From contig JBHGNT010000009.1 in the NCBI GenBank assembly GCA_043228905.1, forward strand, positions 2,356,001-2,420,000: a DNA stretch of 64,000 nt. Reading direction: 5' to 3'. A model generated the notes under the pieces. That model was not told the origin of the DNA. It was given only the letters and a program-made list of their open reading frames with translations, and ran no database searches. Numbering within the stretch: position 1 is the first letter of the stretch; every line of letters starts with the position of its first letter. Origin of the DNA: Azolla caroliniana (Eukaryota > Plantae > Polypodiophyta). Made by a program: the position numbers and the translations under genes. Positions 18,779-64,000 of the stretch are shown here, in pieces.

Positions 18779-18804
18779 CCAAATGGCTCCTATTTTGGCT
18801 GGAC

Positions 18805-19165: not shown

Positions 19166-19603
19166 ACTGGTGTTGAACCAATTTGGTTCAAAACAATGCC
19201 TTGTGCCTCCTTTTATAGTGTTTTTAGGAATAATCCTGAAGCTTCTAGAATGTTCCAGAGAGATCTGGAATATACATCAATTTTCTATGATAAAGCATAA
19301 ATGAAAATAATATCCTACAAAATACAATTCATAGTCTAATGGTAAGAGCTTGACCCATGTAGCATAAGGTCATGGGTTCGAGTCTTGCTATATCATGCCA
19401 TATCATGACAATATATATACACACACACACACGTTCATCTTGTTTCAATCAGTTGCGGTTTCTGTGTATTTGTGTGTGTGCAAAGCATGGCCATCGTCAG
19501 CACGGCCATTGTCTTTCTTGCTCCTCTCCCTCTCTCTTGTCCCTCGGACCAAGTCCCCCGGGGTCCCGCCTCGTTCTACACGCATGCGCGTAATAACACG
19601 ACA

Positions 19604-21702: not shown

Positions 21703-21774
21703 CCGACGTCCGGCGACTAAATAAAATAAATATATAAATATATACATATTTACATATACAAGGAGGGCAAGTAT

Positions 21775-21828
21775 GGATTCGAACCTTGCACCTCCAAGTT
21801 AGGAGTCAATTGGCTTACCATTAAGCCA
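21775..21828 (-). promoter_or_regulatory. tRNA-type Pol III A box/B box in the U3 of element C (second copy 28155-28208)
   Basis: TGGCTTAATGG...GGTTCGAATCC, starts 43 nt apart. Confidence 0.7.
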
Positions 21829-22237
21829 TGCTGTTTAGTTAAAATTATATTTCTATCATTATACTTTTACATGTAAATTCTCATACATGAGATCTAAAAT
21901 GAGTGACATGGTTAGCATGCACCACATGTAATACTTAAGCGCCAAATGGCAAACATGCAATTTATGCATGTCTTGTACCCTCACATGCATCATATGCATG
22001 AGAGCATCTATAAAAGAGGGAAGGGGGAGGAGAAAAAACACGGTTTTTTTTATGAAAATTAGGAGGAAGAAATTCGTTATCAAATTGATTGTGTAATCTC
22101 AACTTCTCTCTTTCCCAATCTATCTTAAGTACTTTCTCGCCAAAGCTTGTATCGACTCTAAATCCTTCTGGTCCAGAACCCCGGCGGTTCCGCCTCACGA
22201 TCCGCGCGTAGTGACGGATCTTCACGACATAATAAAG

Positions 22238-22255
22238 TGGTGAACCCGACGTGAA
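22238..22255 (+). promoter_or_regulatory. Primer-binding site, tRNA-Trp
   Basis: TGGTGAACCCGACGTGAA is complementary to the plant tRNA-Trp 3' end as I recall it (TTCACGTCGGGTTCACCA). Variants at 42031-42048 (-) and 45997-46014 (+). Confidence 0.85.
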
Positions 22256-22296
22256 AGAGGCGGTAGGAAGGATCAAGTCGAGATTAATACTTGGAG

Positions 22297-23664: not shown

Positions 23665-23780
23665 GAATCAAGCCGAAAAGGGGAGCCGAGCATACGAGTT
23701 GAAGAAACGGTTCGGCCCGTGAAGGTTGGTGTCGAAGACCCCGCTCGGAGGACAAGGACAATACCTACCTATAAGCTAAG

Positions 23781-24494
23781 TTGGGCATAGAGCAGACGAC
23801 GGACCTAAAGAAGATTCTCGAAGAACGAGTTCTTGATAGCCACGTAACTTTGTCCTTGAGGGAATTGCTTGGCATTATGAAGAAGGAGTTCCATGACACG
23901 ATCGTGGACCTTGTAAAGAGAAAGAGACAACAATCAAACGAGGAAGAAGAGAAGCCACAGAAAGCAAAAACGAATGCCATAACAATGGCAAGAGACGAAA
24001 TCGATGAAGATATGGTGGACAGCCACTACACTCGACCTCATTGGGCACGAGCGACAACGGAGACGCCTGTGAAAATCGGGGAGAAGAAAGAGACCGTCGT
24101 AGCCTTGATCGACCACGGCTCGGAGATCAACCTCATGTCAACCGACTTCTACAAAAAGGGAAGATGGCCAATCAATACAAACCACGGATGGAAGATTCGC
24201 ACGGCAACAACGTCTACGGAGGACTTGTACGGAGCTTGTCCCAATGTCAAAGTCACGATCGGGGATGTGGAGATGGATCAACACTTCTTCGTACAAGAAT
24301 CGGCGTCGCATCCTGTCATCGTAGGGCAACCTTATATCACATCATCTCGGATGGAGACCAGAGTGTTCGATAATGGAGCAGCCTTCGCACGAATAAAGAG
24401 TCTTGACAACCAAAGATCGGTCCAATTCCTAACGGTGCGAGCCAATCATGAAAGGAATCGAGATAGTCTCGGAGCCGAATCCTCGGATTTTTAG
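23781..24494 (+). CDS. Aspartic protease region (continuous with gag in other copies), ending at slippery G GAT TTT TAG
   Basis: ALIDHGSEINL and VIVGQPY flap/helix motifs. Confidence 0.8.
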   Translation: MGIEQTTDLKKILEERVLDSHVTLSLRELLGIMKKEFHDTIVDLVKRKRQQSNEEEEKPQKAKTNAITMARDEIDEDMVDSHYTRPHWARATTETPVKIGEKKETVVALIDHGSEINLMSTDFYKKGRWPINTNHGWKIRTATTSTEDLYGACPNVKVTIGDVEMDQHFFVQESASHPVIVGQPYITSSRMETRVFDNGAAFARIKSLDNQRSVQFLTVRANHERNRDSLGAESSDF

Positions 24495-27400
24495 AGCGGA
24501 CTATTGAAGCATGGGGCACAAATAGTCTGAGCAATCACAAGACCCCACAAGAAAGAAGAGTGCGTGGATTGCAAGGAGAAGCAACATGTGTCACACCTAG
24601 TGGCGCATGTAAACTAGTACTACCCGACAAGAAGCACAAGCGCCGGATACAAGAATTCGAGAAGATGCTGAAAGAAGAGAATATAATAGAAGAAGGAGAG
24701 TTCGTGACTCATATTATGGAAGAAGCCTCATTTAACGACACCATCGGCGAAATCGAGGACGTTGTGGACTTGAGCTATCTTCACAACCAACGCGTGATTT
24801 CGGTTAATCCGTCAACATTTACGCTATCATCGATGAATACTGTCGTGGCATCTCGATGAAGGAAGCTGACATCAACACGAAATATAAAACGGTGGATAAG
24901 AAGATCAAGCCAGTTGCGGTTCCGCTATCGGAAGATAGCTGGCAAAAGATGAAGGAAGTCGCTAACGATCCAAGCTTAAGAGATCCGAAGAAGATAGGTC
25001 ATGACTTCACCAAAGAGACGAAGGGGAAGCTACGAGTTGGAAAGGAGGATTTCCTTCTCCCTGAAGAGGAGCGAATGTTTCGCGATATGCTTGAGAGACA
25101 TGGGAAGGCTTTCGCATTCTTCCCACGAGAAATCGGATGCGCCGACCCAAAGGTTATAGAGCCAATGGTGATCTTCACGGTGCCTCATGTGCCTTGGAAT
25201 TTGAAACCGATACCGGTTCCGAGAGCACACCTTCCGAAGCTGATCGAGCTCTTAAAGGAGAAGGTGAGTATGGGAATTCTAGAACCGTCGAATGCTCCTT
25301 ATTCCAATAGGTGGTTCACGGTGCCGAAGAAGAATGGATCATTGCGATTCATCCAAGATCTTCAACCCGTCAACAAGGTGACAATTCGAAATGCCGGAAT
25401 CGGTCCGAGCGTGGACGAATTTGCCGAAGCGTTTGCGGGCCGGTCCATCTACTCCATTGGCGATCTCTACTCCGGATATGACCAATTCCAATTGGCGATC
25501 GACAGTCGGGACATTACAACCATGAGGACTCCGATCGGGCTTGTGCGGATGTGTACCTTACCCCAAGGCACAACGAACTCGGTGGCTCATATGGTGAATG
25601 CCATGAATAAAGTCTTGAAGGATTGCATTCCGGACATCACGATGCCATTCTTGGATGATATTCCGATAAAAGGATGTTCGGATGAGGAGAAAGATGAATC
25701 GAAAGATAAGGAAGGTTGTAGAAAGTTCATTGCGGATCATATGAAAGATTGCGAGAAGGTGCTTCAAAGGCTCGAAGATGCGAATTTGACATTTTCGGGA
25801 GAAAAATCCGCATTCGGGCAACCGGAGATCTTGGTGGTGGTTCACTTGTGTGGAGCATACGGCCGGAAGCCCTCGCCATCCAAAGTGAACGCAATCCAAG
25901 ACATGAAAGAAGAATGCGAAAACCAAACGGAGGTTCGAAGGTTCCTTGGAGCGTGCGCGTTTTATCATATATGGATTCCTCACTACGCTCATGTCGCCGA
26001 ACCGTTATATGGACTACTAAAGAAAAGAATAAAGTTCGAATGGCGAGACGAGCACACAGAGGCGATGCGAAAATTAAAGAAACTGCTTCTTGAAGCTCCG
26101 ACACTAAGGAAGGCCGACTATGCCGAAGGGAAACCAATTTACGTGACCGTAGATACGAGCCCAACCGGAATCGGGTGGGTCATCAATCAAGAATGTGAAG
26201 ATAATGCGCGATATGCCGTCCGGTTTGGAGCAAAGGTTCTCAGCGAACGGCAACAAAGATATGCCCAAGTCAAGCGGGAACTTTGGGGTATTGTGTCGGC
26301 AGTGAAGATGGACAAAGATTACCTGATCGGGTCAGAAGTGATAATAGAGACAGATTGTCTCCCAATTCTCGGAATGGTCTCGGGATGTGCGACCCCAGAT
26401 CTTGCTATGCTAAGGTGGATCGCCTACATCAAGTCTTTAAACCCAGAGATCCGTCACATCGCAGGGAAGAAGAACGCCGTGGCTGACATGCTGTCGAGGC
26501 CAAGATTTTCAAATGGAAGTAACATGGTTTCGGAAGATGAAGATGTCGCCCTCGACTTCTTCAAGATGGCTCGATTGTCGGCGGAAGACCAGGACACGCA
26601 AACCCTCCACGCCTTCAACGAGAACGAGTACGAAGGAGAGTGGTTACTCATCGGTAGATTCCTAAGAACATTGACGACAGATGCTTCGTTGACAAAGGAG
26701 GAGGCCCTATGAATCCGAAAGAAAGCTTATCGATACTTCTTGAAGGGAGGATTCCTTTGGCAACATCCAAAAAGAAGGACAGGAATACCACGTCGAGTGG
26801 TGGTAAAGAAAGAAGAGCAAGAGACGCTGATGACCGAATTCCACGAGAGTGCTTGGGCAGGTCATAGAGGAACATGGGCGACGTTCGAAAAGTTGAAGGA
26901 GAAGTACTGGTGGCCAAGCATGTACAAAGATGTACTCCATTTCGTGTCCACATGTGAAACTTGCCAAATATATTCAAATATACGTCATCGTGATGAGTTA
27001 AAGCCGACATACCCACTCACCATTCACTTCAAATGGATGGTGGATCTGGTCTCGATGCCAATGGGAGTGGGACAAATGAAGTACTTAGCGCTCGCAAGGG
27101 AAGACTTGACAAATCAAGTGGAAGGACGAGCCTTGACAAATAAGACGACTTCAGCCGTTTGTAAATTTTTACTTGAAGATGTTGTTTGCTGATATGGATG
27201 TGTAGGGAAGATAGTGGCCGACCGAGGGGAGTTGGACGCGCACGAAGCGACGGAGCTCTTCGAAAGACTAGGCGTGAAGCTCTCCCTCACGACTGCCTAC
27301 AATCCGGAAGCAAATGGGAAGATCGAGCGAGGGCATGGACCTATCGTTAAAGCCATCGTACGGGCATGCAACGGTCGAGTCGGGAATTGGCCACGACTAT

Positions 27401-27978
27401 TACCCTATGCCTTGTGGGCCGATAGAACGACACATAGCTCGGTGACAAGGTATATGCCGACGGAGCTTATGTATGGACAAAAGCCGATTATGCCCATCGA
27501 AAGGACGATCGCCTCATGGGTAGCGATATCGTGGGAGAACGAGATGAGCCGAGAAGAGTTATTAGCGGCGCGGATAAGGCAACTTGAAAGAAGACCTGAA
27601 GATTTAGAAAAAGCGCGAAAGATGATGAAGGCAGCCCGAGTAAAGAACAAAGTTCGGTTCGACAACACGCATCGACTTCGTCCCAAGAAGATTGAAGAAG
27701 GGGATTGGGTTTTGGTTTACGACAGCACCCTTGACAATCAACATAGTACAACAAGGAAGTTCGCAAGAAGATGGTTTGGGCCGTATGTGGTGACAAGTGC
27801 CAACGATAATGCCACATACCACCTTGCGGAACTAGACGGATCAAGGTTGGCCGTACCCATTGCGGGAAAAAGAGTAAAGCTTTTCAAGAAAAGACAAGAC
27901 AAGGATCCTGACCTCGATTACCTCGACGATGAACATAATAGGCCGGATGAAAATGAAGACATGGAGGAATCTAATTGA
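24488..27978 (+). pseudogene. pol: RT-RNaseH-IN of element C (one frameshift, two TGA stops)
   Basis: ORFs at 24560, 24856, 26740 and 27214. YSGYDQF, FLDD, VDTSPTG, HESAWAGH..CETC, WFGPY. Confidence 0.92.
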
Positions 27979-28608
27979 TCATCGTAGCCGAAATCTCACT
28001 TCTTCTCTTCTTGGCACCGGTATCCGGCGACCGACGGCATCCGGCGGCGACACTGGTATCCGGCGACGGTATCCGGCGAACCGGCGTCCGGCGACTAAAT
28101 AAAATAAATATATAAATATATATACATATTTACATATACAAGGAGGGCAAGTATGGATTCGAACCTTGCACCTCCAAGTTAGGAGTCAATTGGCTTACCA
28201 TTAAGCCATGCTGTTTAGTTAAAATTATATTTCTATCATTGTACTTTTACATGTAAATTCTCATACATGAGAGCTAAAATGAGTGACATGGTTAGCATGC
28301 ACCACATGTAATACTTAAGCGCCAAATGGCAAACATGCAATTTATGCATGTCTTGTACCCTCACATGCATCATATGCATGAGAGCATCTATAAAAGAGGG
28401 AAGGGGGAGGAGAAAAAACACGTTTTTTTTATGAAAATTAGGAGGAAGAAATTCGTTATCAAATTGATTGTGTAATCTCAACTTCTCTCTTTCCCAATCT
28501 ATCTTAAGTACTTTCTCGCCAAAGCTTGTATCGACTCTAAATCCTTCTGGTCCAGAACCCCGACGGTTCCGCCTCACGATCCGCGCGTAGTGACGGATCT
28601 TCACGACA

Positions 28609-45262: not shown

Positions 45263-46751
45263 TGTCGTGATGTTTTTTGTCCATGGTGAGAAAACCGAGC
45301 GGGATAGAGAAAATGGAGATGTGCAACATTGCACATGAACTTAGGGAAATTGTAACATAGGGACAAATAAGCAAATGTAAAGTGTAAGGAGTTAAGGTGC
45401 TCTACAAAGTTGTTAAGTGTAATTGTGATGTGCACTTTGTGGACTAGAGGGAGGTACATAGAGAATGAGTGTAAGAGTGATGGGCATTGAGTAGGACTGC
45501 TAGAGGAGAGAGAGTTAAGGCCCATCAATCTCGAGATCGGGGCAAATATTCTCCTTTGAATGAAAAGGGGAATTGACCACTCCTATTGTATTGTGCCTCA
45601 CCCCTTACCACTATAAAATGGAGTGAGGGGTCCCTTTTGAAGGGGTTGCCTATTTTGTGTATGGGAGGTATACCACTTAGTCTAGGGTTCTTACCGTTTT
45701 AGGGTTAGGGTTTCGTTTAGGGTTTCCTTATTCATCTTCGGTTAGGGTTTTCTCATAGTCGTTTCGTGCAGCCCATGCGGCCACCATTGTTGTAATCATT
45801 CATTTGTTTTAATATAACTTGTTGAGCATCTTGCCTCAGCCGATTTCTCCTTCTATATCATGGTCTTATTCTTTCCTCTTCTCCTCTTGAGCTAAGCTTC
45901 CAAATTATATCTTATTCTTTCTCCTCTACTCCCTAGTCCGAGACCACCGTGGTCCCGCCCCTTCTACACTCACGCGCATAACAACGCGACATATTTTGGT
46001 GCACCTGACGTGAACAGGCGGTAGAGGAATAGAAAGATGAGAGAGTCGGATCTTGCAGAAGCCATGGCTTCGGCTGTGGATCAGATAGTGAGTTCGCGCA
46101 AAGGCACAAGCGCCCTCGATAGGGCTATTGAAGCAGTCGTCGACACGATAGGCCGGTTCGGTGGGAAGGACACCACGAGCTATTTGGAGGCTTACTGAGC
46201 CGAAATAGTGATGAGAGACATCCCGGAGGACAGGCGATTGGCCGGATTCCCTCGGGTGGCGGTGTCGGGCATCCACGCGGAGGTGCTTGAGGTACGGGCT
46301 AAGAGTCGGACCTGTGAAGAGTTTGAAGGTAGCTCCTTGAAAAGTACGGGCTTGATGACGCGCTTTGACTATCGAAGCGGGACTTCATGGAATGGGTGGA
46401 GACCCCCGAAAAGGGGAGAAACGCGTCGGTGCTCCTTCGGGAGTTTGAAGAACGTTTCGCACGGCTTTCAGCGCTGGACCAGACCGTACTGGACACAAGT
46501 CGTGTCCTATTGTTCGTTGAATCGGTGGACGCAAGGGACCGGGAGCAAGTGGGCTTCCTGCTGGAGACTGATGACAGCCTAACAACCGACTGGGCCGTGG
46601 TGAAGAGAGTTTGCAGCTGTCAGGAACTCTATTAAGGCAGAGAAGGATTTAGTACTAAAAGAAGGATTAGTACTATTGTTGGGGAATAGTACTAAGACAG
46701 AGAAGGATTAGTACTATGAGAGGTGTCGAACTTTTGAGAGAAGGAATGAGT

Positions 46752-46787
<36 letters not shown>

Positions 46788-47013
46788 TGATGCGAAAGAT
46801 ATATGTATTATATGAAGGAAGATATACAACAGTAGTTAGAAGGCTTAAGACTGGCGTTGAACCGATTTGGTTCGAACTAATGCCTTGCGCCTCCTTTTAT
46901 AGTGTCTTCAGGAATACTCCTGAAGTTTCTAGAATGTTCCAGAGAAATCTGGAATATACATCAATTTCCCAATAAAACCTAAATGAAAATAATATCCTTC
47001 AAATAACAATTCA

Positions 47014-47066
47014 TAACCTAATGGTAAAGTCTCGACCCGTGTAACAAAAGGTTATGGGTTCGAGTC
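47014..47066 (+). promoter_or_regulatory. tRNA-type A box/B box at the U3 tip of chromovirus LTRs (also 52323-52375, 15146-15198, 19332-19384)
   Basis: TAACCTAATGG/TAGTCTAATGG...GGTTCGAGTC, starts 43 nt apart. Confidence 0.7.
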
Positions 47067-47069
47067 TAG

Positions 47070-50000
47070 TTATGACACTATCCCCCCTTTAAAACGACGA
47101 GTTCCACGAGTCGTTTTGGATTGAGGACCCGGTTTCTCGGGATATCGTCGATGGAAGTCTTCTAGAAGAGCACGAGCATTGGTCACATTCTCGATCGGTT
47201 CCCAAGTACGCTCGCTGGGACTATATCCTAGCCAATCGACTAGATAGTAGAGCTTGTTGCGAACAATCTTGGAATCGAGGATGGCAGCGACCTCATACTC
47301 AGGTCCATCTTCGAGCTCGATAGGAGGTGGTGGTTGTATAGTACGTCCTGGGATAGTGCTCTCGTGATAGGGTTCGAGGAGAGAACTATGAAACACCGGA
47401 TGTATCCGAAGTTGCGGAGGTAGCTCGAGACGAAAAGCGACATCATTAATCTTCCCGATAATACGGAAAGGACCTAATCGCCGATAATCCAACTTCTCAC
47501 ATGGGCGAGTAGTCTTGATGTGTCGTCGTAGCAGCCACACCCGATCTCCAATGTTAAAACTGGATGGAAGTCGATGACGATCTGCGTAGTCCTTGTGTGA
47601 TTGTTGAGCTTGCTGGAGTTGAGTAGATAAATCCGCTTGTATCTTGCGTAACCGCTCCAAACGATCCTCCGCGCAAGGATTTGTGGACACTTCTGGGGTT
47701 TCAAGGACACACCACCGGGGATGATATCCCGTATAAGCGTAGAATGGCGTGACTTTAGTCGATGCGTGGATAGCGTTATTATAGGCAAATTCGGCGAACT
47801 GAAGAATATCTGCCCAGTCATTCTGATGATAGTTGAGAAAGCACCGCAGATACTGCTCCAGTGTTTGATTTGTTCGTTCGGCTTGACCGTCGGTTTGTGG
47901 GTGGTAGCCGGAGGAGAGGTTACAAGTGACCTTCAACATTTTAAAAAGGTGCTTCCAGAATTTTGACACAAACTGGGGTCCACGATCGCTGATGATATTA
48001 TCAGGGAGTCCATGATGCCGACATACTTCCCGCATGACAATTTCGGCGGTGTCTTCACTAGATATTTCTTTAGTACATGGTAAGAAATGAGCCATCTTCG
48101 TATATCGATCCACCACTGTGAGAATCGCACTGAATCCCTTAGAGACTGGAAGATCTGTAATGAAGTCAAGAGCAATGGATTGCCATGGCTTGCTTGGAAT
48201 TGGTAATGGTTCTAATAAACCATATGGATGATGTCTTGGCATTTTCGCTCTGCAGCATGTATCGCAAGTCCGAACAAAATCTTCGACAAATTGTCGCATA
48301 CGGGGCCACCAGAATGATCGTTGTACTAAATCTAATGTTTTAGTACTACCAAAATGTCCTGCTGTATATGTGTCATGGCAATTTTGTACTACTCGAAGGC
48401 GGCAAGAACCATTAGGAACATACAAAAGTTCTTTAAAGAAGAGTAATCCATCACAGTATTTGAATTGCCGATAATCCGTACCTGGTGATTGTGATTGTGA
48501 ACATGACGCTCGAGAGGGGTCAATTTGTGCTAGTATAGCTTGGGCGAAAGCGTCAGTCTTCAAGTCCTCACGTATAGTATTGGTAATGTCGGAATCCACG
48601 GGCATGTCAAAGACCTGTGCTGCTTGCAGTCGTGCTGGACCCAAGATTACTTGCTTCTGGTTATCGAAAGCTGGCTCACCGGGACGTGGTGTTAGATACG
48701 AACGCCGTGATAATGCATCTGCCTTCCCTTGGTGCTTCCCCGGACGATATGTAATTTTGAAGTCGAAGCGTGTGAGGAAGTGGGCCCACCGAGCTTGACG
48801 TCGATTCAGTACACGAGCATCTTGAAAGTAGGCAAGGTTCTTGTGGTCACTGAATACAGTGACCTGATGAGGAGATCCCTCCAGGAAATGCCTCCATTGC
48901 ATAAAAGAATCAACTATTGCTAATAGCTCTTTATCATGAATTTCGTAGTTGATTTCGGCGGCGTCAAACTTACGGGAGTGGAAAGCCACAGGATGTAGCT
49001 TCTCGTCGTTACCCTGTTGTGACAGAATGCTCCCCAATGCGAAATCCGATGCGTCAGCTTCGATAATGAATGGTTTTTCCGGATCCACATGACCTAAAAT
49101 TGGAGCTGATGTAAACGCCTTCTTAAGACTCTCGAAAGCCATGTCCGTCTCTTTAGACCAAATGAATGATTGTCCCTTCCTGGTGAGCTGTGTGAGAGGC
49201 AGCACAATTTTTGAGTAATTTTGTATGAACTTCCGGTAAAAATTTGCAAAGCCTAGGAAGCATTGCACATCCCGCACCGAACGCGGAGTGTGCCATTCTA
49301 TCACCGTTTTCACCTTGGCTGGGTCCATAGATATGCCTTCTGAGGAGATGACATAGCCGAGAAATTCCACTTGGTTGCACCCGAAACTACATTTCTCTAA
49401 CTTTGCATACAGACCATGTTCTCGAAGTCGTTTTAGTACTAATAGTACATGAGAATCATGTTCTTCTTGGGTCTTTGAATAAACCAGTAGATCATCCAAA
49501 TAGATGATCAAAAAATCATCCAAGAGATCTCGAAATATATCATTCGCCATGTGCTGGAAGACTGCCGGCGCATTAGTGAGTCCGAACGGCATGACCGTAT
49601 ACTCGAAGTGCCCATATCTGGTGCGAAACGCGGTCTTCCATTCATCTCCTGGTCGGATCCGTACGAGGTTATAGGCTCCTCGTAAGTCGATCTTCGTGAA
49701 GAACCTGGCACCGTTGATCCGTTCTAAAAGACTTGAGATAAGGGGAAGAGCATACCTATTTCTTACTGTGACCTTATTCAAGCCACGGTAATCTACAACG
49801 AGTCGAAGCGAGCCATCTTTTTTCTTGACGAAGAAAATGGGTGCACCGGCTGGAGATTTCGAATGCCGAATGAAACCGTTCTCCAAATTCTCCTCTATAT
49901 AGGCTCGGAGGACTTCTAGCTCGGTTGGTGACAAATTGTAGATCGGCCCCCATGGCGGCTCTTTTCCCGGTTGTAAGTCGATGGCGCAATCGTACGGCCG

Positions 50001-50627
50001 ATGATGAGGAAGTGTGTTGGCTTGTACTTTATCGAACACATCAGCATACTGACGATACTTCTCGGGAAGTTGAATGGTGGACTCCTCTTTGGTGGTGCTG
50101 GAGGGTTGTACTGATATTGCGAAGAGAAACATTTCCTCCTTGCGCCCTTCCTCACGCAACTGATGTAGCGAAATGGTTGCAACCTTCTGGGTAGATCCTT
50201 GGGTTTGTCGCAACCGGATTTCCCTTGTCCTCCAATCTATGTCTGGGTTATGTAACTCGAACCATGGTAATCCTAAAACTATGGGATGTTCTGGAATACT
50301 AATAATATTAAATGATACTACACATGTTAAGTTATCTAGGACAATATTAACGGGTTCCGACTCTTCTATGATATTACCAGAAGCAATGGGACGACCATCA
50401 ATGACTACTACTGAGGCTGGACATGGGAGCTTTCTGAGAGATATCTGATGAGCTCGGGCAAAATTCCTATCCATGAAGCAAGAATTAGCTCCGGAATCTA
50501 GAAGGGCTAAGGTATGTACTGGAGGGGTACTTTTAGTACTAACTGCTACTTGGGCTACGAACACATCACTAACTTGCTTAGAGGGAATGGAACCACTAAT
50601 GGGCTGCACAGATCTAGGGCTGTCCAA
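47070..50627 (-). CDS. pol: Pol polyprotein PR-RT-RNaseH-IN-chromodomain (intact; -1 frame relative to gag)
   Basis: 1185 aa with all catalytic motifs and a canonical chromodomain. The stop lies just inside the 3' LTR. Confidence 0.96.
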   Translation of the reverse strand: MDSPRSVQPISGSIPSKQVSDVFVAQVAVSTKSTPPVHTLALLDSGANSCFMDRNFARAHQISLRKLPCPASVVVIDGRPIASGNIIEESEPVNIVLDNLTCVVSFNIISIPEHPIVLGLPWFELHNPDIDWRTREIRLRQTQGSTQKVATISLHQLREEGRKEEMFLFAISVQPSSTTKEESTIQLPEKYRQYADVFDKVQANTLPHHRPYDCAIDLQPGKEPPWGPIYNLSPTELEVLRAYIEENLENGFIRHSKSPAGAPIFFVKKKDGSLRLVVDYRGLNKVTVRNRYALPLISSLLERINGARFFTKIDLRGAYNLVRIRPGDEWKTAFRTRYGHFEYTVMPFGLTNAPAVFQHMANDIFRDLLDDFLIIYLDDLLVYSKTQEEHDSHVLLVLKRLREHGLYAKLEKCSFGCNQVEFLGYVISSEGISMDPAKVKTVIEWHTPRSVRDVQCFLGFANFYRKFIQNYSKIVLPLTQLTRKGQSFIWSKETDMAFESLKKAFTSAPILGHVDPEKPFIIEADASDFALGSILSQQGNDEKLHPVAFHSRKFDAAEINYEIHDKELLAIVDSFMQWRHFLEGSPHQVTVFSDHKNLAYFQDARVLNRRQARWAHFLTRFDFKITYRPGKHQGKADALSRRSYLTPRPGEPAFDNQKQVILGPARLQAAQVFDMPVDSDITNTIREDLKTDAFAQAILAQIDPSRASCSQSQSPGTDYRQFKYCDGLLFFKELLYVPNGSCRLRVVQNCHDTYTAGHFGSTKTLDLVQRSFWWPRMRQFVEDFVRTCDTCCRAKMPRHHPYGLLEPLPIPSKPWQSIALDFITDLPVSKGFSAILTVVDRYTKMAHFLPCTKEISSEDTAEIVMREVCRHHGLPDNIISDRGPQFVSKFWKHLFKMLKVTCNLSSGYHPQTDGQAERTNQTLEQYLRCFLNYHQNDWADILQFAEFAYNNAIHASTKVTPFYAYTGYHPRWCVLETPEVSTNPCAEDRLERLRKIQADLSTQLQQAQQSHKDYADRHRLPSSFNIGDRVWLLRRHIKTTRPCEKLDYRRLGPFRIIGKINDVAFRLELPPQLRIHPVFHSSLLEPYHESTIPGRTIQPPPPIELEDGPEYEVAAILDSKIVRNKLYYLVDWLGYSPSERTWEPIENVTNARALLEDFHRRYPEKPGPQSKTTRGTRRFKGGIVS

Positions 50628-50653
50628 CCAAACGGCTCCTATTTTGGCTGGAC

Positions 50654-51823
50654 TTAGTCGTTTAACTCTTCTTCTAATTGGCTAAGGACATCAAATTTGT
50701 TTGCGAGATTCGGACTATTAGTACTATTAGGACTATTATGACTATGAGGACTATCAGAGATTCCTACTGAAATAGACTCGGGTTTAGTATAGTCAGAACT
50801 AACAACGACTTGGTTTACCTGCCTTCTTGGTCTATGGGGACAGTTTATCGCGATATGCCCTGGTCCACCGCAATAAAGGCATAATCGGTTTGTTCGGCGT
50901 CGTTGCTTTTCCTCCTCCGATAGCGGCCCACGACGACGTGTAGTGTCAATTTCCATTGGAGTTGGAGTACTTACTGGAGGCGCATTATGTGACTCCCTTT
51001 GAAAAGGTTTTGCTACCACTGAGGCATAGGTAGGCTCGGATCTTGCCCTCGGCATCTGAAATTGTCGTTCCGAACGTCGCTCGAAGAGGCGGTTGTCACA
51101 TCTGACCGCTCGACTGATTGCTTCTGTTAATGATTTTGGCTCTTCAGGGAAAGTCAAGAGTAAATCCTTGACATCGTTGCGTAGACCATAGCGGAACTGC
51201 TCCATCAATGCTTGATCATCCCAGGGGATATCGGCGGCGAGTAGGCGGAAATCTGCAGCATATGCGGAGGCTGGACGGTCACCTTGGCGTAATCGCCGGA
51301 TTTTGTTGATTGCAGTCCTTATGCTGTCAGTATCTCCAAAACATGCTTTAAACTCACTTATGAATTCTTCAAAATTATTTAGTACTGGAGATTCCTTTTC
51401 TAGTAGCGGAGCGAACCATGCTAATGCTGAGCCATTTAACAACGTGCCTACTAAACCCACTCGTGATGCATCGGTGGGATATCGGGACGGATGCATTTGA
51501 ATAACTAACCGTACCTGGTTAAGAAACCCTCTAAACTGCGATCGCGTTCCATCGAACTTCGTGGGAAGGCCAATCTTGGGTTCTTTATGAATCCCTTGTG
51601 CTCCGTGCCCTTGTTGTTGCATTGCTACGATGGTTGCTTCGAGTTGTTGCACGCGTAACGCAAGTTCCCCATGCTGTTGTTGCGTTTGCTGCTTTTCTAA
51701 GGAAATTTGCTGAAGATCCCCCAACAAGCGTTGATTTTCTTGTTCCAAAGCATGAAACTTCTCTTTCAAGCATTGAAATTCCGAGAAAACGGATTGATAC
51801 TCTTCAGCGCTAACGGTGGCCAT
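50654..51823 (-). CDS. gag: Gag (coiled coil, sushi/PEG10-like capsid, CCHC knuckle)
   Basis: 389 aa. [39 protein letters not shown]. Confidence 0.95.
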   Translation of the reverse strand: MATVSAEEYQSVFSEFQCLKEKFHALEQENQRLLGDLQQISLEKQQTQQQHGELALRVQQLEATIVAMQQQGHGAQGIHKEPKIGLPTKFDGTRSQFRGFLNQVRLVIQMHPSRYPTDASRVGLVGTLLNGSALAWFAPLLEKESPVLNNFEEFISEFKACFGDTDSIRTAINKIRRLRQGDRPASAYAADFRLLAADIPWDDQALMEQFRYGLRNDVKDLLLTFPEEPKSLTEAISRAVRCDNRLFERRSERQFQMPRARSEPTYASVVAKPFQRESHNAPPVSTPTPMEIDTTRRRGPLSEEEKQRRRTNRLCLYCGGPGHIAINCPHRPRRQVNQVVVSSDYTKPESISVGISDSPHSHNSPNSTNSPNLANKFDVLSQLEEELND

Positions 51824-52058
51824 GGGATGAAGGAAAAGGGAAATAAGAGACTAGTAGGAAAGGAGGGAGACAGAAGGAAGAGGGAGAGAAAAGACCAGAC
51901 AGGCACCCAGAAATCGGTTCAAACTGTCAGGAACTCTATTAAGGCAGAGAAGGATTTAGTACTAAAAGAAGGATTAGTACTATTGTTGGGGAATAGTACT
52001 AAGACAGAGAAGGATTAGTACTATGAGAGGTGTCGAACTTTTGAGAGAAGGAATGAGT

Positions 52059-52096
<38 letters not shown>

Positions 52097-55000
52097 TGAT
52101 GCGAAAGATATATGTATTATATGAAGGAAGATATACAACAGTAGTTAGAAGGCTTAAGACTGGCGTTGAACCGATTTGGTTCGAACTAATGCCTTGCGCC
52201 TCCTTTTATAGTGTCTTCAGGAATACTCCTGAAGTTTCTAGAATGTTCCAGAGAAATCTGGAATATACATCAATTTCCCAATAAAACCTAAATGAAAATA
52301 ATATCCTTCAAATTACAATTCATAACCTAATGGTAAAGTCTCGACCCGTGTAACAAAAGGTTATGGGTTCGAGTCTAGTTATGACAGCAGCCGTTTTGAC
52401 AAATGACGTGAGTGGGTCCATAATGGCTTGACGGGGGCGGGTTCTGTTGCGACAAGGAAGGTCGAGGTACCCCCACCGGCGCAAAGGGAAGAGACCCGAG
52501 ACTGGCTCGAGACCAGCTCGACTTCGACCGGCATGGTCAAAGGCTCGTCCGGAGGAGCGGCTTTGGAGGAGCTGACTCAGGTGGTGAGGGACCTCCAGAT
52601 TGCACAAGCACAGAGGGACGGCGGCGAAGAAGTCCGTGACCGAAGGCCTCCTGCTGGGAACCGGTGATTGTGGTGCGACGCGGTAGCCATGCCCGAAAGG
52701 ACTGTGGGAACTTCACCGAAGTGACAAGAGCTAACGTGGTGCACCTATGGAACAGTCGGGTGCACGCTAGCGAGACCCAAAGGGCCCTAGATCTGAATAT
52801 CGGATGAGGGGGTATGAAACAGTTAATGGAAGAAGCTGTGGCTCGCCACGCGGAGACCATCCACTACTCGGCGTCGGCCAGAATCCAGGTCGGAAGTGAC
52901 GAGGTTCGAAAGACAAAGGAAGCCGAATTCTGGCCGTTGATGCTGGAAGGCCTCACCGGCGTATGGCTGAGGAAAGAGGAAGTAGACCGCGCGAAAAGAC
53001 GAGTCCGGGAGGTAACCGGGTGGAGTGACCCAGTCGAAGAGAAGACGGGTTTCGTGGAAGCTGCGTGCCAGAACTACGAGGTTTTGGTGGAAGACAAGCG
53101 TGCAGGAAAGACCGGGGGGGCCAGACCCTCACAATGGTATGAGACCCTGTTCGGGCCAAAGCAGAATGATGCCGGTGCATTCGGCGCACCGAACAAGGCC
53201 AAGAAGGCCGGTTATCGGTTGAGCACAAAGATCAAAAGAACCACGGACCTACAAAAGGTCCTGGAGGAACGGATCCTTGACAGCAAAGTGGAGTTGTCAC
53301 TGAGGGAAGTGCTCGGTATCGCCAAGAAGGAGTTCCATGACTCCATCATAGACTTGGTGAAGCGGAAAAGGCTTTGGACGGAGCTAGAGCCCGAGAAGCC
53401 GGTGGAGGTGCGAACGACGCACCTAGAAGACATGGCCCTAGAGGACGAATTGGCGGAAAGCCACTACTCGAGGCTACATTAGGCTAGGGCCACTACGGAA
53501 ACCCCTGTTCGGATCGGGGACGTCCAAGAGCCGGTGGTGGTGTTGGTAGACTACAGTTCGGAGATCAACTTGATGTCCATGGACTTCTACAAGAAGGGAA
53601 AGTGGCCAATCAACACCAAGCACAGGTGGAAGATACGGGCAGCAACGCGCACCATGGAGCCTGCCCGAATGTACGAGTGAAAATCGGCGATGTCGAGATC
53701 GATCAACACTTCTTCGTGTAGGAGACATCCTCGCATCCGGTGATACTCGGAGAACCGTACATCACGGCGGCACGCATGGAAACAAAGGTGTTGGACAACG
53801 GTTTGGCATATGCACGAGTCAAGAGCCAGGATGGGCATCACTCAGTCCAGTTCCTGACGGTGCTACCGAACCATGAGCGTAACCGCGAGACCCTCGGTGC
53901 CGATAACCGAGGGGGTTTTAGAGAGGGCTATCAAGGCATGGGGCCGCGATAGTCCGGACACCCCGGAAACACCCCACAGATGTACTATAGGCAAAAACAC
54001 ATGTACCATAGGTAGGAAATTTTGGCTCTCCAATAGCGGAGGTTGTACGATAACCGGTGTAGTTGGCTGGGAAAAGAAGCAGGCGGAGGAGCAACTTCGG
54101 GCATGCGGAGTCCTCGGCCCTGAAGAGGAAATCAACGGGGCCGTGGAGCCGGTCTCTTTTGACGATACCTTGGGGAAGTTACGGTAGGTGTTGGGAGAAG
54201 GCCTTAATGAGGACCGGACAATTTTGGTATGTTCGGAAAGGATGTACAAAGTCATCACTGACTTCGGTAATGGACTCGAGTCGGATCGGACGGCCCGAGT
54301 GGATACGAAGTACAAGACTGTGGACCAGAAGGTGAGGCCAGTCGCGGCACCCTTGCCGGAGGGCAGCGAGTTACGGATAAAGGGGATCACGTCGGACCCA
54401 AGTTTACGAGAACTGGCCAGCATAGGACACACGTTCACCGACATAACGCTACGAGAGCTCAAGATCGGTGGGGGTGGATTTCTACTGCCGGCGGAAGAGG
54501 ACCAATTTCGGAGAATGCTCGGGTGGCACGGGAAGGCTTTCGCATTCTCACCGGAGGAGATCAGGTGCGTAGAACCCGACGGTTGTGGAACCAATGGTGA
54601 TCTTCACAGTACCGCATGTGCCATGGAATCTCAAACCGATTCCTGTAACCAGAGCTCACATCCCGAAGCTGATGGAGTTGTTGAAACAGAAGGTGGAGAT
54701 GGCCATCCTCGAACCGTCGAGTGTCCCATATTCGAATCGGTGGTTTACAGTGCCAAAGAAGAACGGCACACTATGCTTCATACAGGACCTGCAGTTGGTC
54801 AACAAGGTGACCATTCGAAACGTAGGTATCGGACCGACCATTGATGAGTTCGCGGAGGCCTTCGCAGGGAGGTCGATCTACTCGGTCGGGGATCAGTACT
54901 CAGGGTACAATCAGTTCCAACTTCCCATAAACAGCAGGGATGTCACGACGATGCGGAATCCTCTCGGCCTAGTTCGGATGTGTACCCTACCATAAGGGGG

Positions 55001-58000: not shown

Positions 58001-58095
58001 GTAGTTTCCTTCCCCTCTTCTCATTCGGCTATTTCTCGGTCCAAGGCCCCCGTGGTCCCGCCTCGTTCTCCACGCACGCGCATAACAACGCGACA

Positions 58096-60120: not shown

Positions 60121-60662
60121 TGTCGTGCCTTTCGGCTCCGGATCGTTGCGTGAGTCGGGTGGGAACCACAGAGGTCTTGGACTAGGAGAAAGAAGTTCGT
60201 GAGATAGAGATTAATTATGAGTAAATAGCAAAGAGAAAGATAAGAAACTCGTGAATCACACGAGTATACTATATTAATTGGTACTTAGAGTGTTAAGAGA
60301 GAAGTAGATGTATAAATCGTGAATCCCACGAATAATTTTTGTATTGATTCATACTTAATCCAAATAATCAACAACCCTTTATATATTTCTCTCCTCCTTA
60401 TATAAGGAAGGAAGAGCTAAGCATGGCTTCATGCTTTTTTTTTTTTTACAAAAAGTGTTCATGTCCACTAAATGTGCATGTGATGCTTTTTTATTTCCTA
60501 AGTATAGGGCTCATGCACGCTAGATGTGCATGAGTTATTTTTAGTGTCTCGTGTTTTCTTTTTCATATATTAAAAAAATACACGATTTACTTTTTAATAA
60601 AGGTATGCATAAATAAAGGTCTTATACGTATTAAATCTATATTTAAAACACTTAAGATAAGT

Positions 60663-60716
60663 TAATGTAATGGTAAGGTTGGGGTTTGTCAACGTGGAGG
60701 TGCAGAGTTCGAATCA
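60663..60716 (+). promoter_or_regulatory. Degenerate tRNA-type A box/B box in the U3 of element G
   Basis: TAATGTAATGG...AGTTCGAATCA, starts 43 nt apart. Confidence 0.6.
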
Positions 60717-60870
60717 TGCCCTGCGTAGTAATGAATATTTCCTTCTTTTTTACATTTATGTCTCTTTATCCGGCTCTTCCTTGCCGGTATGCCGTTTTCT
60801 TCCGGTTCTTACCGAGCACTCCATTCTCTATCCGGAGGGACAAAAATATAATTTCCACATAGTGTGCAAC

Positions 60871-63800
60871 CTACACTACGACACTCGCCCCCTCCAAACA
60901 CGCACATCCTCCGGTATGTGCCGAAGTTCTTGATTCTTCGTATCCGTCTTCATCCGAAGCTTTCTCCGATTCTCCCCCTATGTCGACTATGAGTTGCAAT
61001 CCACTTTCTTCGCTTCCCGCATCATTGTGGTCTTCGTCCGATTGCTCCTCGTTGTCGGCCTCGACTTGGATCACATAAGGTTTGTCGTCGGTCCGCTTCT
61101 TGAAAATCTTCACCCGCTTCCCGGCTATAGGCACTCGTAGTATTGTTCCATCCAACTCGGACAGTCGGTACGTCCCGTTGTCGAAGACCTTCCGAACCTC
61201 GTACGGCCCGAACCACCTTTTCGCGAATTTCCGCATCGTTGTATGTTGATGGTCCAAGCTACTATCATAGACGATCACCCAATCTCCTTCTTCAATCCTC
61301 CTCGGTCGTAGTCGGTGCTTTGTGTCGAACCGGCTTTTGTTCCGGAACCGTGCTTCTTGTTGTCGGCGTGACACTTCCGCTACATCTTTCGGTCTTCCCT
61401 CCAGTTGTCGTATCCGGACCGCTAGTAGTTCTTCCCGGCTCATCTCTTCCTTCCACGGTAGTATCGTCCATGTCGCGATTGCGGTTTCCGTTGGCATTAC
61501 TGGTGCTTGTCCGGTCATGAGTTCTGCCGGCATGTAACCGGTCACGGAGCTATGCGTCGTCCGATCCGCCCATAGTGCATACGGAAGCATTTGTGGCCAA
61601 TCCTTCACCCTTCCGTCGCATGCCTTCGCAAGTGCTTTCACGATCGGACTATGTCCTCGTTCGATCTTCCCGTTGGCCTCCGGATTGTAGGCCGTTGTCA
61701 ACGTTAACCGAACTCCATGTTTGGCGAAGAATCCCCTAGCTTTGTCCGAGTCGAGTTCTCCCCGGTCCGCAATCACTTGTCCTACGCAGCCGTACCTACA
61801 AAACACTTCTTCCAAAAGAAATTGGCACACCGCGGCACACGTTTTCCTCCGAAGCGCTCGACCTTCAACTTGGTTTGTGAGATCTTCTCGAGCTAACACC
61901 AAGTATTTCTTTTGTCCAATCCCGGTCGGCATAGCTACAATGTCGACCATCCACTTGAAGTTGATTGTCGGTGAGAATGTCGGATGCAGCTCATCTCGGT
62001 GTCGGACCCCGGAGTAGACTTGACATTTCTCGCAGCTTTCTGTGAACTCCGCGACATCTTTATACATGTTCTTCCACCAATATCTTTGCTTGATTTTCAC
62101 AAAAGTTGCCCATGTTCCTCGATGTCCAGCCCAATCGGATTCGTGGAACTCGGACATTATCCGGTTTCGTTGCTCTTTCGTCCCGACTACTCGAAGTGGT
62201 ATCCCATCCGGTCTTTTCGGCGTCCTCCATATTAAACCGTTTTCCAAGAAGAACTTTTGGACTTGCCTCTTCTTCCTTCGGATCTCGGCTCTCCTCTCTT
62301 TATCATTGGTTGAATCCTCGACCTCTTGTAGCATCTTCCCGATCATCAAGGTTTCCCCCTCGTATTCTTCTTCCCGGAATTCTCGGATCACGTTCACTCG
62401 GCATATGTGTTCTGACGTGAAGTAGTCTTCGGAAACTTCTTCATTATCTGATTCGGTTATGTCGTCTTCAAACCGCGCCCTCGATAACATGTCCGCTACC
62501 GCGTTGTCCTTCCCCGAGATGTGTCGAACCTCCGGATTAAATGACTTGACATATGCAATCCACCTTAGCATAGCCACATCCGGTATCGTACAACACCGCA
62601 TCATCCCGAGTATCGGAAGACAATCCGTCTCGATCACCACTTCAGCTCCGATCAAATAATCCCGATCCGATTTTATCGCCGACACGACTCCCCACAATTC
62701 TCTTTTGACTTGTGCATATCCGCGTTGCCTTTCGTTGAGGACCTTTGCTCCAAATCGGATCGGATACCGCGAACCATCCGAGTCGGCTTGATTGATGACC
62801 CACCCGATACCGGTTGGACTTGTATCAACCGTTACTATGATTGGCCGCTCGTAGCTTGGCTTCTTAAGTGATTCCGCCCTCCATAGTGTCTTCTTGAGCT
62901 TCCTCATGGCTTTAGTGTGTTCCGGTTTCCACTCGAATTTCTTACCTTTCCGCAACAAGTGATAGAGCAGGTCCGCTATATGTGCATAGTGCGGAATCCA
63001 TATGTGATAGAATGCACACGCACCCAGAAACCTTCGGACTTCCGATGTTGACTCACATACTTCCTTCATAGCTTGAATCGCATCGATCTTTGTTGGTGAC
63101 GGTTTTCGGCCGTAGGGTCCACATAGATGTCCGACCACCAATATTTCTTCTTGCCCGAATGCCGATTTCTCCCCGGAAAGTGTTAGGTGCACATCTTCTA
63201 GCTTTCGCAACACTTTCTCGCAATCATGAATATGGTCGACCACGAACTTTCGGCATCCCCGATCATCCATAGTCTCATCTTTTTCTTCCACCGCGCATCC
63301 TTTCATCGGAATGTCATCTAGAAACGGCATCGTTATCTCCGGGATGCAATCTCGAAGCACCTTGTTCATCGCGTTCATCATATGTGCAACCGAGTTTGTC
63401 GCTCCTTGTGGTAGTGTGCACATTCGAACTAGTCCTATCGGTGTCCGCATGGTAGTGATGTCTCGGCTCTCCACGGCTAGTTGGAATTGGCCATACCCCG
63501 AGTATAGGTCCCCGATGGAGTATATCGCACGTCCGGCAAAAGCTTCCGCGAATTCGTCCACTATCGGACCGACTCCCGAGTTCCGGATCGTGACCTTGTT
63601 CACCGGTTGCAAGTCTTGGATGAATCGGAGTGACCCATTCTTCTTCGGAACCGTAAACCATCGATTTGAGTACGGAGCACTTGATGGCTCTAGAATCCCC
63701 ATCGCCACCTTCTCCTTGAGCAAGTCGATGACTTTCGGAATATGCGCCCGTGGCACCAGAATCGGCTTCAGGTTCCACGGTACATGATCAATCGTGAAAA

Positions 63801-63984
63801 TCACCATCGGCTCCACTATCTTTGGATCAATGCATCCGATCTCCCTCGATGTGAACGCGAATGCTTTGCCATGTTGCTCCAACATCTCTCGAAACCGTTT
63901 TTCTTCTTCTTGTAAGAGGAACCCACCTCCACCGATCCGAAGTTTCTTCCGGGTCTCATCTGTGAAGGCATGTCCGATATCCAC
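60871..63984 (-). CDS. pol: Open RT-RNaseH-IN ORF of element G (5' partial)
   Basis: 1037 aa uninterrupted. LPQGATNS, FLDD, HHCC, WFGPY, acidic tail running into the LTR. Confidence 0.94.
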   Translation of the reverse strand: MDIGHAFTDETRKKLRIGGGGFLLQEEEKRFREMLEQHGKAFAFTSREIGCIDPKIVEPMVIFTIDHVPWNLKPILVPRAHIPKVIDLLKEKVAMGILEPSSAPYSNRWFTVPKKNGSLRFIQDLQPVNKVTIRNSGVGPIVDEFAEAFAGRAIYSIGDLYSGYGQFQLAVESRDITTMRTPIGLVRMCTLPQGATNSVAHMMNAMNKVLRDCIPEITMPFLDDIPMKGCAVEEKDETMDDRGCRKFVVDHIHDCEKVLRKLEDVHLTLSGEKSAFGQEEILVVGHLCGPYGRKPSPTKIDAIQAMKEVCESTSEVRRFLGACAFYHIWIPHYAHIADLLYHLLRKGKKFEWKPEHTKAMRKLKKTLWRAESLKKPSYERPIIVTVDTSPTGIGWVINQADSDGSRYPIRFGAKVLNERQRGYAQVKRELWGVVSAIKSDRDYLIGAEVVIETDCLPILGMMRCCTIPDVAMLRWIAYVKSFNPEVRHISGKDNAVADMLSRARFEDDITESDNEEVSEDYFTSEHICRVNVIREFREEEYEGETLMIGKMLQEVEDSTNDKERRAEIRRKKRQVQKFFLENGLIWRTPKRPDGIPLRVVGTKEQRNRIMSEFHESDWAGHRGTWATFVKIKQRYWWKNMYKDVAEFTESCEKCQVYSGVRHRDELHPTFSPTINFKWMVDIVAMPTGIGQKKYLVLAREDLTNQVEGRALRRKTCAAVCQFLLEEVFCRYGCVGQVIADRGELDSDKARGFFAKHGVRLTLTTAYNPEANGKIERGHSPIVKALAKACDGRVKDWPQMLPYALWADRTTHSSVTGYMPAELMTGQAPVMPTETAIATWTILPWKEEMSREELLAVRIRQLEGRPKDVAEVSRRQQEARFRNKSRFDTKHRLRPRRIEEGDWVIVYDSSLDHQHTTMRKFAKRWFGPYEVRKVFDNGTYRLSELDGTILRVPIAGKRVKIFKKRTDDKPYVIQVEADNEEQSDEDHNDAGSEESGLQLIVDIGGESEKASDEDGYEESRTSAHTGGCACLEGASVVV

Positions 63985-64000
63985 GGACTTCCGAAGTGCC

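What the first reader, a model, noticed from the sequence alone, without database searches (positions are those of the whole stretch)
47014..47066. Antisense tRNA-type Pol III promoter module in the U3 of dissimilar LTR families (best candidate for a new system)
Seen: seven LTR copies from four elements carry TRRYNTAATGGTAAR followed by RGTTCGARTC. They are A (47014, 52323), B (15146, 19332), C (21828, 28208 on -) and G (60663). In every case the A-box and B-box starts are exactly 43 nt apart, which is the T8-G53 spacing of a short-arm tRNA. The module is always upstream of the LTR TATA box and always antisense to the element. A/B are chromoviruses and C/G are non-chromoviruses with otherwise dissimilar LTRs. 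The acceptor and anticodon stems do not form a canonical cloverleaf, so the boxes are retained rather than the tRNA. Known: A/B boxes recruit TFIIIC, tDNAs act as heterochromatin barriers in yeasts, and Cassandra TRIMs carry 5S promoters in their LTRs. Inference: repeated capture of a TFIIIC site that insulates the LTR promoter from silencing, or that produces short antisense RNAs. In A's 3' LTR a TTTT follows just past the PPT complement (~47088).
Basis: partly seen in the sequence, partly recalled or inferred. Interest (0 to 1): 0.85.

Follow-up and report, generated by a model that had tools for sequence, protein, structure and literature searches.

The report
Backward tRNA-gene promoter in retrotransposon LTRs
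Several distantly related jumping genes of a likely moss-type plant carry, back to front near the outer end of their terminal repeats, the promoter boxes of a tRNA gene but not its folded shape, which likely means they recruit the RNA polymerase III factors, perhaps to shield their own promoter from silencing.

Summary
The motif is real: 7 strict A+B-box modules against 0.05 expected at this spacing, all in LTRs and all antisense. They come from two lineages, not four: A/B (Tcn1-like self-priming chromoviruses) and C/G (tRNA-primed non-chromoviruses). The four best-ranked relatives, found by pol alone, carry it at the same place. None of 47 other loci has the full pattern. Across 8 families, 12-13 of 13 box positions, AGGT at tRNA positions 44-47 and 43-45-nt spacing persist, with an AT-rich upstream tract. 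Anticodon and acceptor arms are at background and no longer pair. That matches what TFIIIC and TFIIIB read on DNA, not a tRNA fold. Best reading: a selected, outward-facing Pol III promoter site that likely acts as a chromatin boundary or opener for the LTR. Binding and function are untested, and abundant sister families lack the module. Helenus and Cassandra (non-autonomous; sense where checked) are the closest known. This scan noted similar LTR boxes before, in fungal-type genomes.

The parts
47014..47066 (+). Module in A 3' LTR: A box 47014-47024 (T8-G19), AGGT at tRNA positions 44-47 (47049-47052), B box 47057-47066; ends 11 nt inside the LTR's outer end
46967..47006 (+). AT-rich tract (78% AT) at -40..-1 of the tRNA-equivalent +1; predicted TFIIIB landing zone
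   Evidence: function inferred
52323..52375 (+). Module in A 5' LTR, facing outward into flanking DNA
15146..15198 (+). Module in B 3' LTR
19332..19384 (+). Module in B's truncated 5' LTR
21776..21828 (-). Module in C 5' LTR
28156..28208 (-). Module in C 3' LTR
60663..60715 (+). Module in G 3' LTR, 168 nt inside the LTR's outer end
46618..52386 (-). Element A: Tcn1-like chromovirus with open gag and pol. LTRs 46618-47077 and 51925-52386 differ by 1 mismatch and a 2-nt gap; 5-bp TSD; gag ORF 50654-51850, pol ORF 47070-50681 with chromodomain
51911..51922 (-). Self-priming site of A, complementary over 12 nt to the LTR stretch about 30 nt past the TATA box; covaries with its target in L001, L003 and L005
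46895..46901 (-). Pol II TATA box of A 3' LTR (52204-52210 in the 5' LTR), 113 nt from T8, on the opposite strand to the module
   Evidence: role inferred from position
46906..46953 (-). Heat-shock-element-like array between the module and the TATA box (approximate bounds)
   Evidence: motif name recalled
14789..19410 (-). Element B: chromovirus, pol 82% identical to A, 5-bp TSD, deletion from R into gag
21703..28608 (+). Element C: non-chromovirus Ty3/gypsy, LTRs 98.7% alike, tRNA-type PBS at 22238-22254, pol interrupted by stops
60121..64000 (-). Element G: non-chromovirus Ty3/gypsy, 3' LTR 60121-60883, open pol running off the window

Best explanation
The module is a tRNA-derived type-2 RNA polymerase III promoter whose boxes and spacing are conserved while its tRNA fold is lost, and it is likely kept by selection as a DNA site for TFIIIC and TFIIIB that likely shields or opens the element's own Pol II promoter in silenced chromatin. 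Shown: position at or near the U3 outer end, antisense orientation, back-to-back with the TATA box, and conservation of the positions TFIIIC reads while the stems decay. Inferred (about 0.75): TFIIIC binds the B box and positions 44-47, and the A box at native spacing places TFIIIB on the AT-rich tract on the TATA side. Inferred, weaker (about 0.5 overall): in the 5' LTR this complex sits between flanking repeat chromatin and the enhancer/TATA, phases or excludes nucleosomes and works as a boundary, as tDNAs do in yeasts. Speculative: it arose when PPT-primed plus-strand synthesis switched onto a packaged tRNA or SINE RNA, which would place an antisense copy next to the LTR end; it then moved between families by U3 exchange.
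For: (1) Non-circular presence. Of 51 loci with sequence past the chromodomain, the 4 best-ranked (L001-L004, pol 73, 69, 67 and 54% identical to A) carry it antisense near the start of the 3' LTR. They score 13, 12, 13 and 12 of 13 box positions, each with AGGT. None of the other 47 reaches 13/13, and 4 of 47 reach 12/13 with AGGT at most 1/4. (2) Selective pattern over 8 families: pairwise identity is 90% at A-box invariants, 88% at positions 44-48 and 91% in the B box, against 29% in the anticodon arm and 33% in the acceptor strands. Within one starred clade (A, L001, L002, L003) the figures are 90/90/81% against 31%. Acceptor pairing 16/56 and anticodon pairing 17/40 equal the cross-family background (0.31, 0.46). 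(3) AGGT at 44-47 is invariant in 8 of 8. Yeast tauB contacts G47, a G45 change raises the TFIIIC equilibrium constant 5-fold, and changes at +44 to +47 alter transcription (PMC11724288, passages). (4) That paper shows the A box is needed for TFIIIB placement, not TFIIIC binding, and that a 32-bp linker is the commonest. Here the linker is 32 bp in 6 of 8 families. (5) The -40..-1 tract is 75-88% AT in 8 of 8, against 1.9% of window 40-mers at 75% or more. (6) In G-family contigs, no variant at 4% or more in 60669-60677 or the AGGT, but 6 of 20 sites between the boxes vary. (7) tDNA/TFIIIC barrier and nucleosome-phasing effects are established in yeasts (PMC2040200 abstract; PMC4228148 passages).
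Against: No binding, chromatin or RNA data exist for this host, and plant TFIIIC barrier activity was not found in my searches. The module is dispensable: 7 of 7 LTRs examined from the E/D/F/H/J group, the most numerous group in this window, lack it. So does L005, sister to L004. In G-family contigs the key C56 is T in 13%, 14%, 24% and 47% of depth in four runs, and the 48 nt upstream are nearly as invariant (4 sites) as the boxes, so the within-family test is weak. AT-rich 40-mers up to 0.78 also occur in module-less LTRs. The fission-yeast barrier is orientation-independent, so a barrier role alone does not explain antisense orientation in 8 of 8 families. AGGT was noticed on the same 8 modules it is scored on. 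Pairwise identities are not independent. The tree is the quick method, without bootstrap. Pol III complexes can also repress nearby Pol II promoters.
Confidence: 0.5

Rival explanations
1. It is a selected Pol III site, but it dampens or polices the element: tRNA-gene-mediated silencing of the LTR promoter, a roadblock to read-in transcription, or an antisense RNA from the 3' LTR across the PPT and the end of pol.
For: The same conservation data. tgm silencing and transcription roadblock are known effects in yeast (PMC4228148, passages). The conserved A box implies TFIIIB loading and so possibly transcription.
Against: No conserved terminator: the first T4 lies 65, 73, 83, 100, 104, 125 or 147 nt from T8, and L001 has none within 700 nt. 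In chromoviruses the 5' LTR copy would read into arbitrary flanking DNA.
Confidence: 0.17
2. It is a neutral relic of tRNA or SINE pieces captured repeatedly next to the PPT and carried along by the LTR.
For: Many families lack it. C56 decays in genomic copies. The D stem is partly kept (23/32 pairs against 0.59 background), which fits origin from real tRNAs. An earlier scan note (e1-9852194) judged a backward tRNA piece in a fungal-type LTR a passenger.
Against: Neutral decay cannot take two stems to background while leaving 102 of 104 box positions, a CpG among them. All 7 strict hits in 64 kb lie in LTRs. Contig depth shows no peak over the module, and at most 2% of laid records run on unlike the LTR, so no free high-copy SINE at 80% or more identity is seen.
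Confidence: 0.15
3. It works at the RNA level: U3 RNA complementary to the D, variable and T loops holds a tRNA, like the 3' part of Ty3's bipartite primer-binding site.
For: The orientation is right for pairing with tRNA. In Ty3 the T and D arms of the primer pair with U3 (PMC5371799, passages). Other families in this genome are reported by earlier notes to use tRNA ends near the 3' LTR (not tested here).
Against: A, L001 and L003 self-prime, with a covarying 12-nt PBS-R complement, so they need no tRNA primer. In C and G the module's positions 60-73 match the PBS-defined primer at only 5/14 and 7/14. Stem-strand positions that a long duplex would need are at background.
Confidence: 0.08
4. 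It is a landing pad or decoy for retroelements that target Pol III start sites.
For: Earlier scan notes e1-10420520 and e1-10420559 report insertions upstream of LTR-borne boxes in fungal-type genomes. Ty targeting to Pol III sites is known (PMC4228148, passages).
Against: 0 of 7 module-bearing LTR copies in the window and 0 of 4 in L001-L004 show an insertion upstream of the A box. The sample is small, and the metagenome contigs are probably collapsed copies.
Confidence: 0.07

Closest known systems
Helenus (TRIMp3; Kojima 2024, PMC10886601; parts 1-4 of 6, figure legends and tables, and one supplement passage read)
   Same: tRNA-derived sequence inside both LTRs, conserved around boxes A and B and unlikely to be a functional tRNA. 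One family is from a lycophyte.
   Different: Helenus is non-autonomous (311-1263 bp) and is thought to be transcribed by Pol III. In the consensus sequences I saw (including Helenus-1_SMo) the tRNA part is sense to the element. Here the hosts are 5.8-kb or longer gag-pol elements with their own TATA box, and the module is antisense, so it cannot make the genomic RNA.
Cassandra and Ajax (5S-type TRIMp3; PMC10886601, PMC7215508 passages)
   Same: A Pol III internal promoter carried in LTRs and conserved over long times in plants (Cassandra).
   Different: Type-1 (5S) boxes, non-autonomous, and the promoter drives the element's own transcript.
tDNA and ETC (extra-TFIIIC) chromatin barriers of yeasts (PMC2040200 abstract; PMC4228148 passages; PMC3395662 search listing)
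   Same: A product-independent role of an assembled TFIIIC/Pol III complex beside a Pol II promoter or a heterochromatin edge.
   Different: Those are host loci. Here the site is carried by the mobile element. ETC sites bind TFIIIC without TFIIIB or Pol III, whereas here the A box and its spacing are also kept. No functional data here.
Ty3 bipartite primer-binding site in U3 (PMC5371799 passages)
   Same: U3 sequence complementary to tRNA T and D arms.
   Different: Ty3 pairs with its specific primer. Here the chromoviruses self-prime, and C/G do not match their primer.
Tcn1 chromovirus clade and Phygy/Selgy non-chromoviruses (Neumann 2019, PMC6317226; Novikova 2010, PMC2864245; passages)
   Same: A and B have a chromodomain, and A self-primes. 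C and G lack a chromodomain, have a tRNA PBS and have coding sequence filling the interior.
   Different: Neither text, in the passages searched, mentions Pol III boxes in the LTR ('polymerase III' occurs 0 times in PMC2864245). Clade names were assigned by features, not by placing reference sequences in a tree.

Membership tests
Helenus / TRIMp3 | tRNA-derived A and B boxes inside the LTRs | tested here: met
   12-13 of 13 box positions in 8 of 8 families
Helenus / TRIMp3 | Non-autonomous TRIM of about 1 kb without coding capacity | tested here: not met
   A is 5.8 kb with open gag and pol
Helenus / TRIMp3 | Promoter in sense orientation, able to make the genomic RNA | tested here: not met
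   Antisense in 8 of 8 families; sense in the Helenus entries seen
Type-2 Pol III promoter | A box T8..G18G19 and B box G53-T-T-C-R-A-N-Y-C61 at tRNA spacing | tested here: met
   consensus recalled, spacing range from PMC11724288
Type-2 Pol III promoter | AT-rich upstream region as at plant tRNA genes | tested here: met
   75-88% AT in 8 of 8; feature from PMC13437025 passages; some module-less LTRs also reach 0.78
Type-2 Pol III promoter | Conserved oligo-T terminator | tested here: not met
   First T4 at 65-147 nt from T8 or absent within 700 nt
Type-2 Pol III promoter | TFIIIC/TFIIIB occupancy or a Pol III transcript | not testable with these tools
   Only contigs could be laid
tRNA gene | Cloverleaf with paired acceptor and anticodon stems | tested here: not met
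   ARAGORN 0; acceptor 16/56, anticodon 17/40, both at background
tRNA-derived SINE | Dispersed copies outside LTRs with their own TSD and tail | tested here: inconclusive
   7 of 7 strict window hits lie in LTRs and there is no depth peak over the module; no whole genome was held, and SINEs under 80% alike would be missed
Tcn1 chromovirus (elements A, B) | Chromodomain at the integrase C terminus | tested here: met
   PF00385 in both pol proteins
Tcn1 chromovirus (elements A, B) | Self-priming instead of a tRNA PBS | tested here: met
   12-nt complement in A, covarying in L001, L003 and L005; this region is deleted in B
Tcn1 chromovirus (elements A, B) | Phylogenetic placement with reference Tcn1 elements | not tested
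   No named reference sequences were in hand (one search gave no organism names)
tDNA/ETC chromatin barrier | Blocks spread of silencing in a TFIIIC-dependent way | not testable with these tools
   Needs a reporter or ChIP

The most novel reading that the evidence does not exclude
Autonomous LTR retrotransposons of two deep Ty3/gypsy lineages in one plant group have repeatedly recruited the host's Pol III pre-initiation complex as a portable boundary at the outer edge of their 5' LTR, a cis-acting counter-silencing device that is swapped between families as a U3 module.
Probability: 0.35. Interest if true: 0.85.

Novelty: new variant of a known kind. Interest (0 to 1): 0.62.

Why it matters
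How retrotransposons stay expressible inside repeat-dense, silenced chromatin is an open question. A TFIIIC/TFIIIB site at the LTR edge would be a cis-acting counter-silencing device borrowed from tRNA genes, and it would give the direct plant test of tDNA-type barrier activity that my searches did not find. It is testable with a one-base B-box mutant. It would also mean that high-copy LTRs scatter many TFIIIC sites over the genome, which could affect chromatin domains and the targeting of Pol III-seeking elements.

Tried and rejected
No whole genome is held for this window, so no genome-wide LTR scan was possible. tRNA gene: rejected. Three scans of viral contigs gave one distant locus (L080) and nothing for the C/G lineage, so C/G rests on two window elements plus laid contigs. 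The run search returned 'no RNA holder listed'; this is no evidence on expression. One run guessed as RNA (X17) behaved as DNA contigs. Cluster look-ups gave no organism names, so the host is inferred only from element types (Tcn1-like and Phygy-like, both described from mosses or Selaginella). A relaxed box scan gave many weak hits in coding DNA, treated as background. These include 53-nt-spaced sense hits in L027 and L044 and a 40-nt-spaced hit in L079, none followed up as LTR modules. The careful tree did not finish, and the quick tree was used (51 rows: A, B, 23 of 80 loci and 26 proteins picked to span identity). In one search, 29 of 80 loci were left out because they lacked the chromodomain end or 300 nt beyond it. 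In one search, 36 of 76 variant rows and 443 loose ends were not shown, so the absence of box variants among the 40 shown is weak. MFE folds of the 8 modules gave no shared structure. I did not identify the source tRNA isotype. The label tRNA-Trp for the C-type PBS is recalled, not tested. Literature searches found no description of an antisense A+B-box module in autonomous LTR elements. Subscription papers and Repbase entries were not searchable, and of supplements I saw one passage of one file.

Full report
Observation. The window is a stack of Ty3/gypsy retrotransposons. A textbook A-box plus B-box scan finds these 7 and no others, against a mean of 0.43 in 40 dinucleotide shuffles at any spacing of 30-60 nt and 0.05 at 42-45 nt. 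All lie in LTRs, antisense to the element, on the U3 side of the TATA box. Three corrections: 43 nt is T8 to R52; the supposed TTTT at 47088 is TTT, with the first T4 at 47114; and the four elements are two lineages, because the A and B LTRs are 78-86% alike and C and G group together.

Anatomy. Element A (46618-52386, minus strand) has near-identical LTRs, a 5-bp TSD, open gag and pol with a chromodomain, and a self-priming site that covaries with its target in relatives. These features fit the Tcn1 clade of mosses and Selaginella (PMC6317226, passages). B is a deleted relative. C and G lack a chromodomain, and C has a tRNA-type PBS. Their relatives D, E, F, H and J in the same window lack the module in 7 of 7 LTRs examined. 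The host is likely a non-seed plant; this is inferred from element types only.

Independent relatives. A pol alignment fetched 79 metagenome loci and one viral locus. Of the 51 with sequence beyond the chromodomain, the four best-ranked (L001-L004) carry the module antisense, with the B box 22-40 nt inside the start of the 3' LTR. None of the other 47 has the full pattern; 4 of them reach 12 of 13 positions without AGGT, which is the background. In the quick tree, A, B and L001-L003 lie in one starred clade, while L004 lies in another beside module-less L005 and L010. The label needs at least 2 changes. L004 shares its R region with L005 but a 20-nt U3 stretch with B, which hints at U3 exchange. 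With C/G, at least three lineages carry the module. Losses from an older origin cannot be excluded.

What is conserved. Over 8 families, box positions match 12-13 of 13. Pairwise identity is 90% at A-box invariants, 88% at positions 44-48 and 91% in the B box, but 29% in the anticodon arm and 33% in the acceptor strands. Acceptor and anticodon stems pair no more than across families; the D stem is modestly kept (23/32 against 0.59). AGGT at 44-47 is invariant in 8 of 8. In the yeast TFIIIC structure paper (PMC11724288, passages), tauB contacts position 47 and changes at 44-47 alter binding and transcription. The same paper finds the linker nonessential in sequence, 32 bp the commonest length, and the A box needed to place TFIIIB. 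The conserved set here therefore matches a DNA footprint of TFIIIC plus TFIIIB loading. The -40..-1 tract is 75-88% AT in 8 of 8, as at plant tRNA genes (PMC13437025, passages), although module-less LTRs can reach 0.78. No terminator position is conserved.

Copies in sequencing runs. Sixteen DNA runs hold half or more of element A's words (one may be the window's own source). Laid contigs show no depth peak over the module in the A or G families, which argues against a free high-copy SINE. In the G family all 23 variant sites were shown: 0 in 60669-60677, 0 in the AGGT, 6 of 20 between the boxes, 7 of 20 downstream and only 4 of 48 upstream. C56 is T in 13-47% of depth. This fits CpG decay of dead copies, but it weakens the within-family test.

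Mechanism. Most likely the module recruits TFIIIC and TFIIIB back-to-back with the LTR's Pol II promoter (inferred). In the 5' LTR it stands between host flank and enhancer, the place for a boundary, and tDNA/TFIIIC barriers and nucleosome phasing are established in yeasts (PMC2040200 abstract; PMC4228148 passages). Against this: the module is dispensable in abundant families, the yeast barrier ignores orientation, and Pol III complexes can also repress neighbours. The fixed antisense orientation may come from the route of capture (plus-strand synthesis from the PPT switching onto a tRNA) or from selection against Pol III reading into the enhancer; both are speculation. Pairing with the primer tRNA is unlikely, because the chromoviruses self-prime and C/G do not match their primer. 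No insertions upstream of the boxes were seen in 11 LTR copies.

Comparison with known systems. Helenus, Ajax and Cassandra carry Pol III promoters in LTRs, but they are non-autonomous and use, or are thought to use, the promoter for their own transcript. The Helenus entries I saw are sense. That paper also notes that not a few Repbase LTRs contain part of a tRNA, without analysing them. This element fails Helenus membership on autonomy and orientation. Six searches found no account of an antisense, box-conserved module in autonomous elements. Earlier notes of this scan describe LTR-borne boxes in fungal-type genomes; they are leads, not support.

Verdict. Real, probably under selection, function untested. 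New variant of a known kind; interest 0.62.

Noticed in passing
window 46906-46953 (A), B LTRs, L001:4340-4440, L004:4270-4345: Heat-shock-element-like arrays (2, 2, 5 and 3 perfect three-unit matches) between the module and the TATA box; none in the other 12 LTRs scanned. Suggests heat-inducible chromoviruses; motif name recalled.
   Followed up: partly
window C LTRs (21900-22010), L002, L003, L005: CATG-rich repeats, and in C, L002 and L003 a shared 10-nt palindrome-like motif, occur in both a non-chromovirus and chromoviruses. This points to modular U3 enhancers that converge or are exchanged.
   Followed up: partly
window 27980-28090: Element C has no recognisable PPT or TG start; a short tandem repeat sits there, and its flanks belong to different elements with no TSD.
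   Followed up: partly
window 45600-45992 and 57404-58096: The two LTRs flanking element F share only the U5 end, so F may be a recombinant; element A is inserted in its gag.
   Followed up: partly
window 47090-47118, and the same place in B, L002, L003: A hairpin-like inverted repeat just upstream of the PPT is kept across the A clade.
   Followed up: no
window 6046-6866 and 59126-59449: A 274-nt tandem triplication within an RT gene, and a 54-nt tandem array.
   Followed up: no
L079:3470-3521: A weaker A/B-like pair with AGGT at 40-nt spacing, upstream of a distant chromovirus and not shown to be in an LTR.
   Followed up: partly
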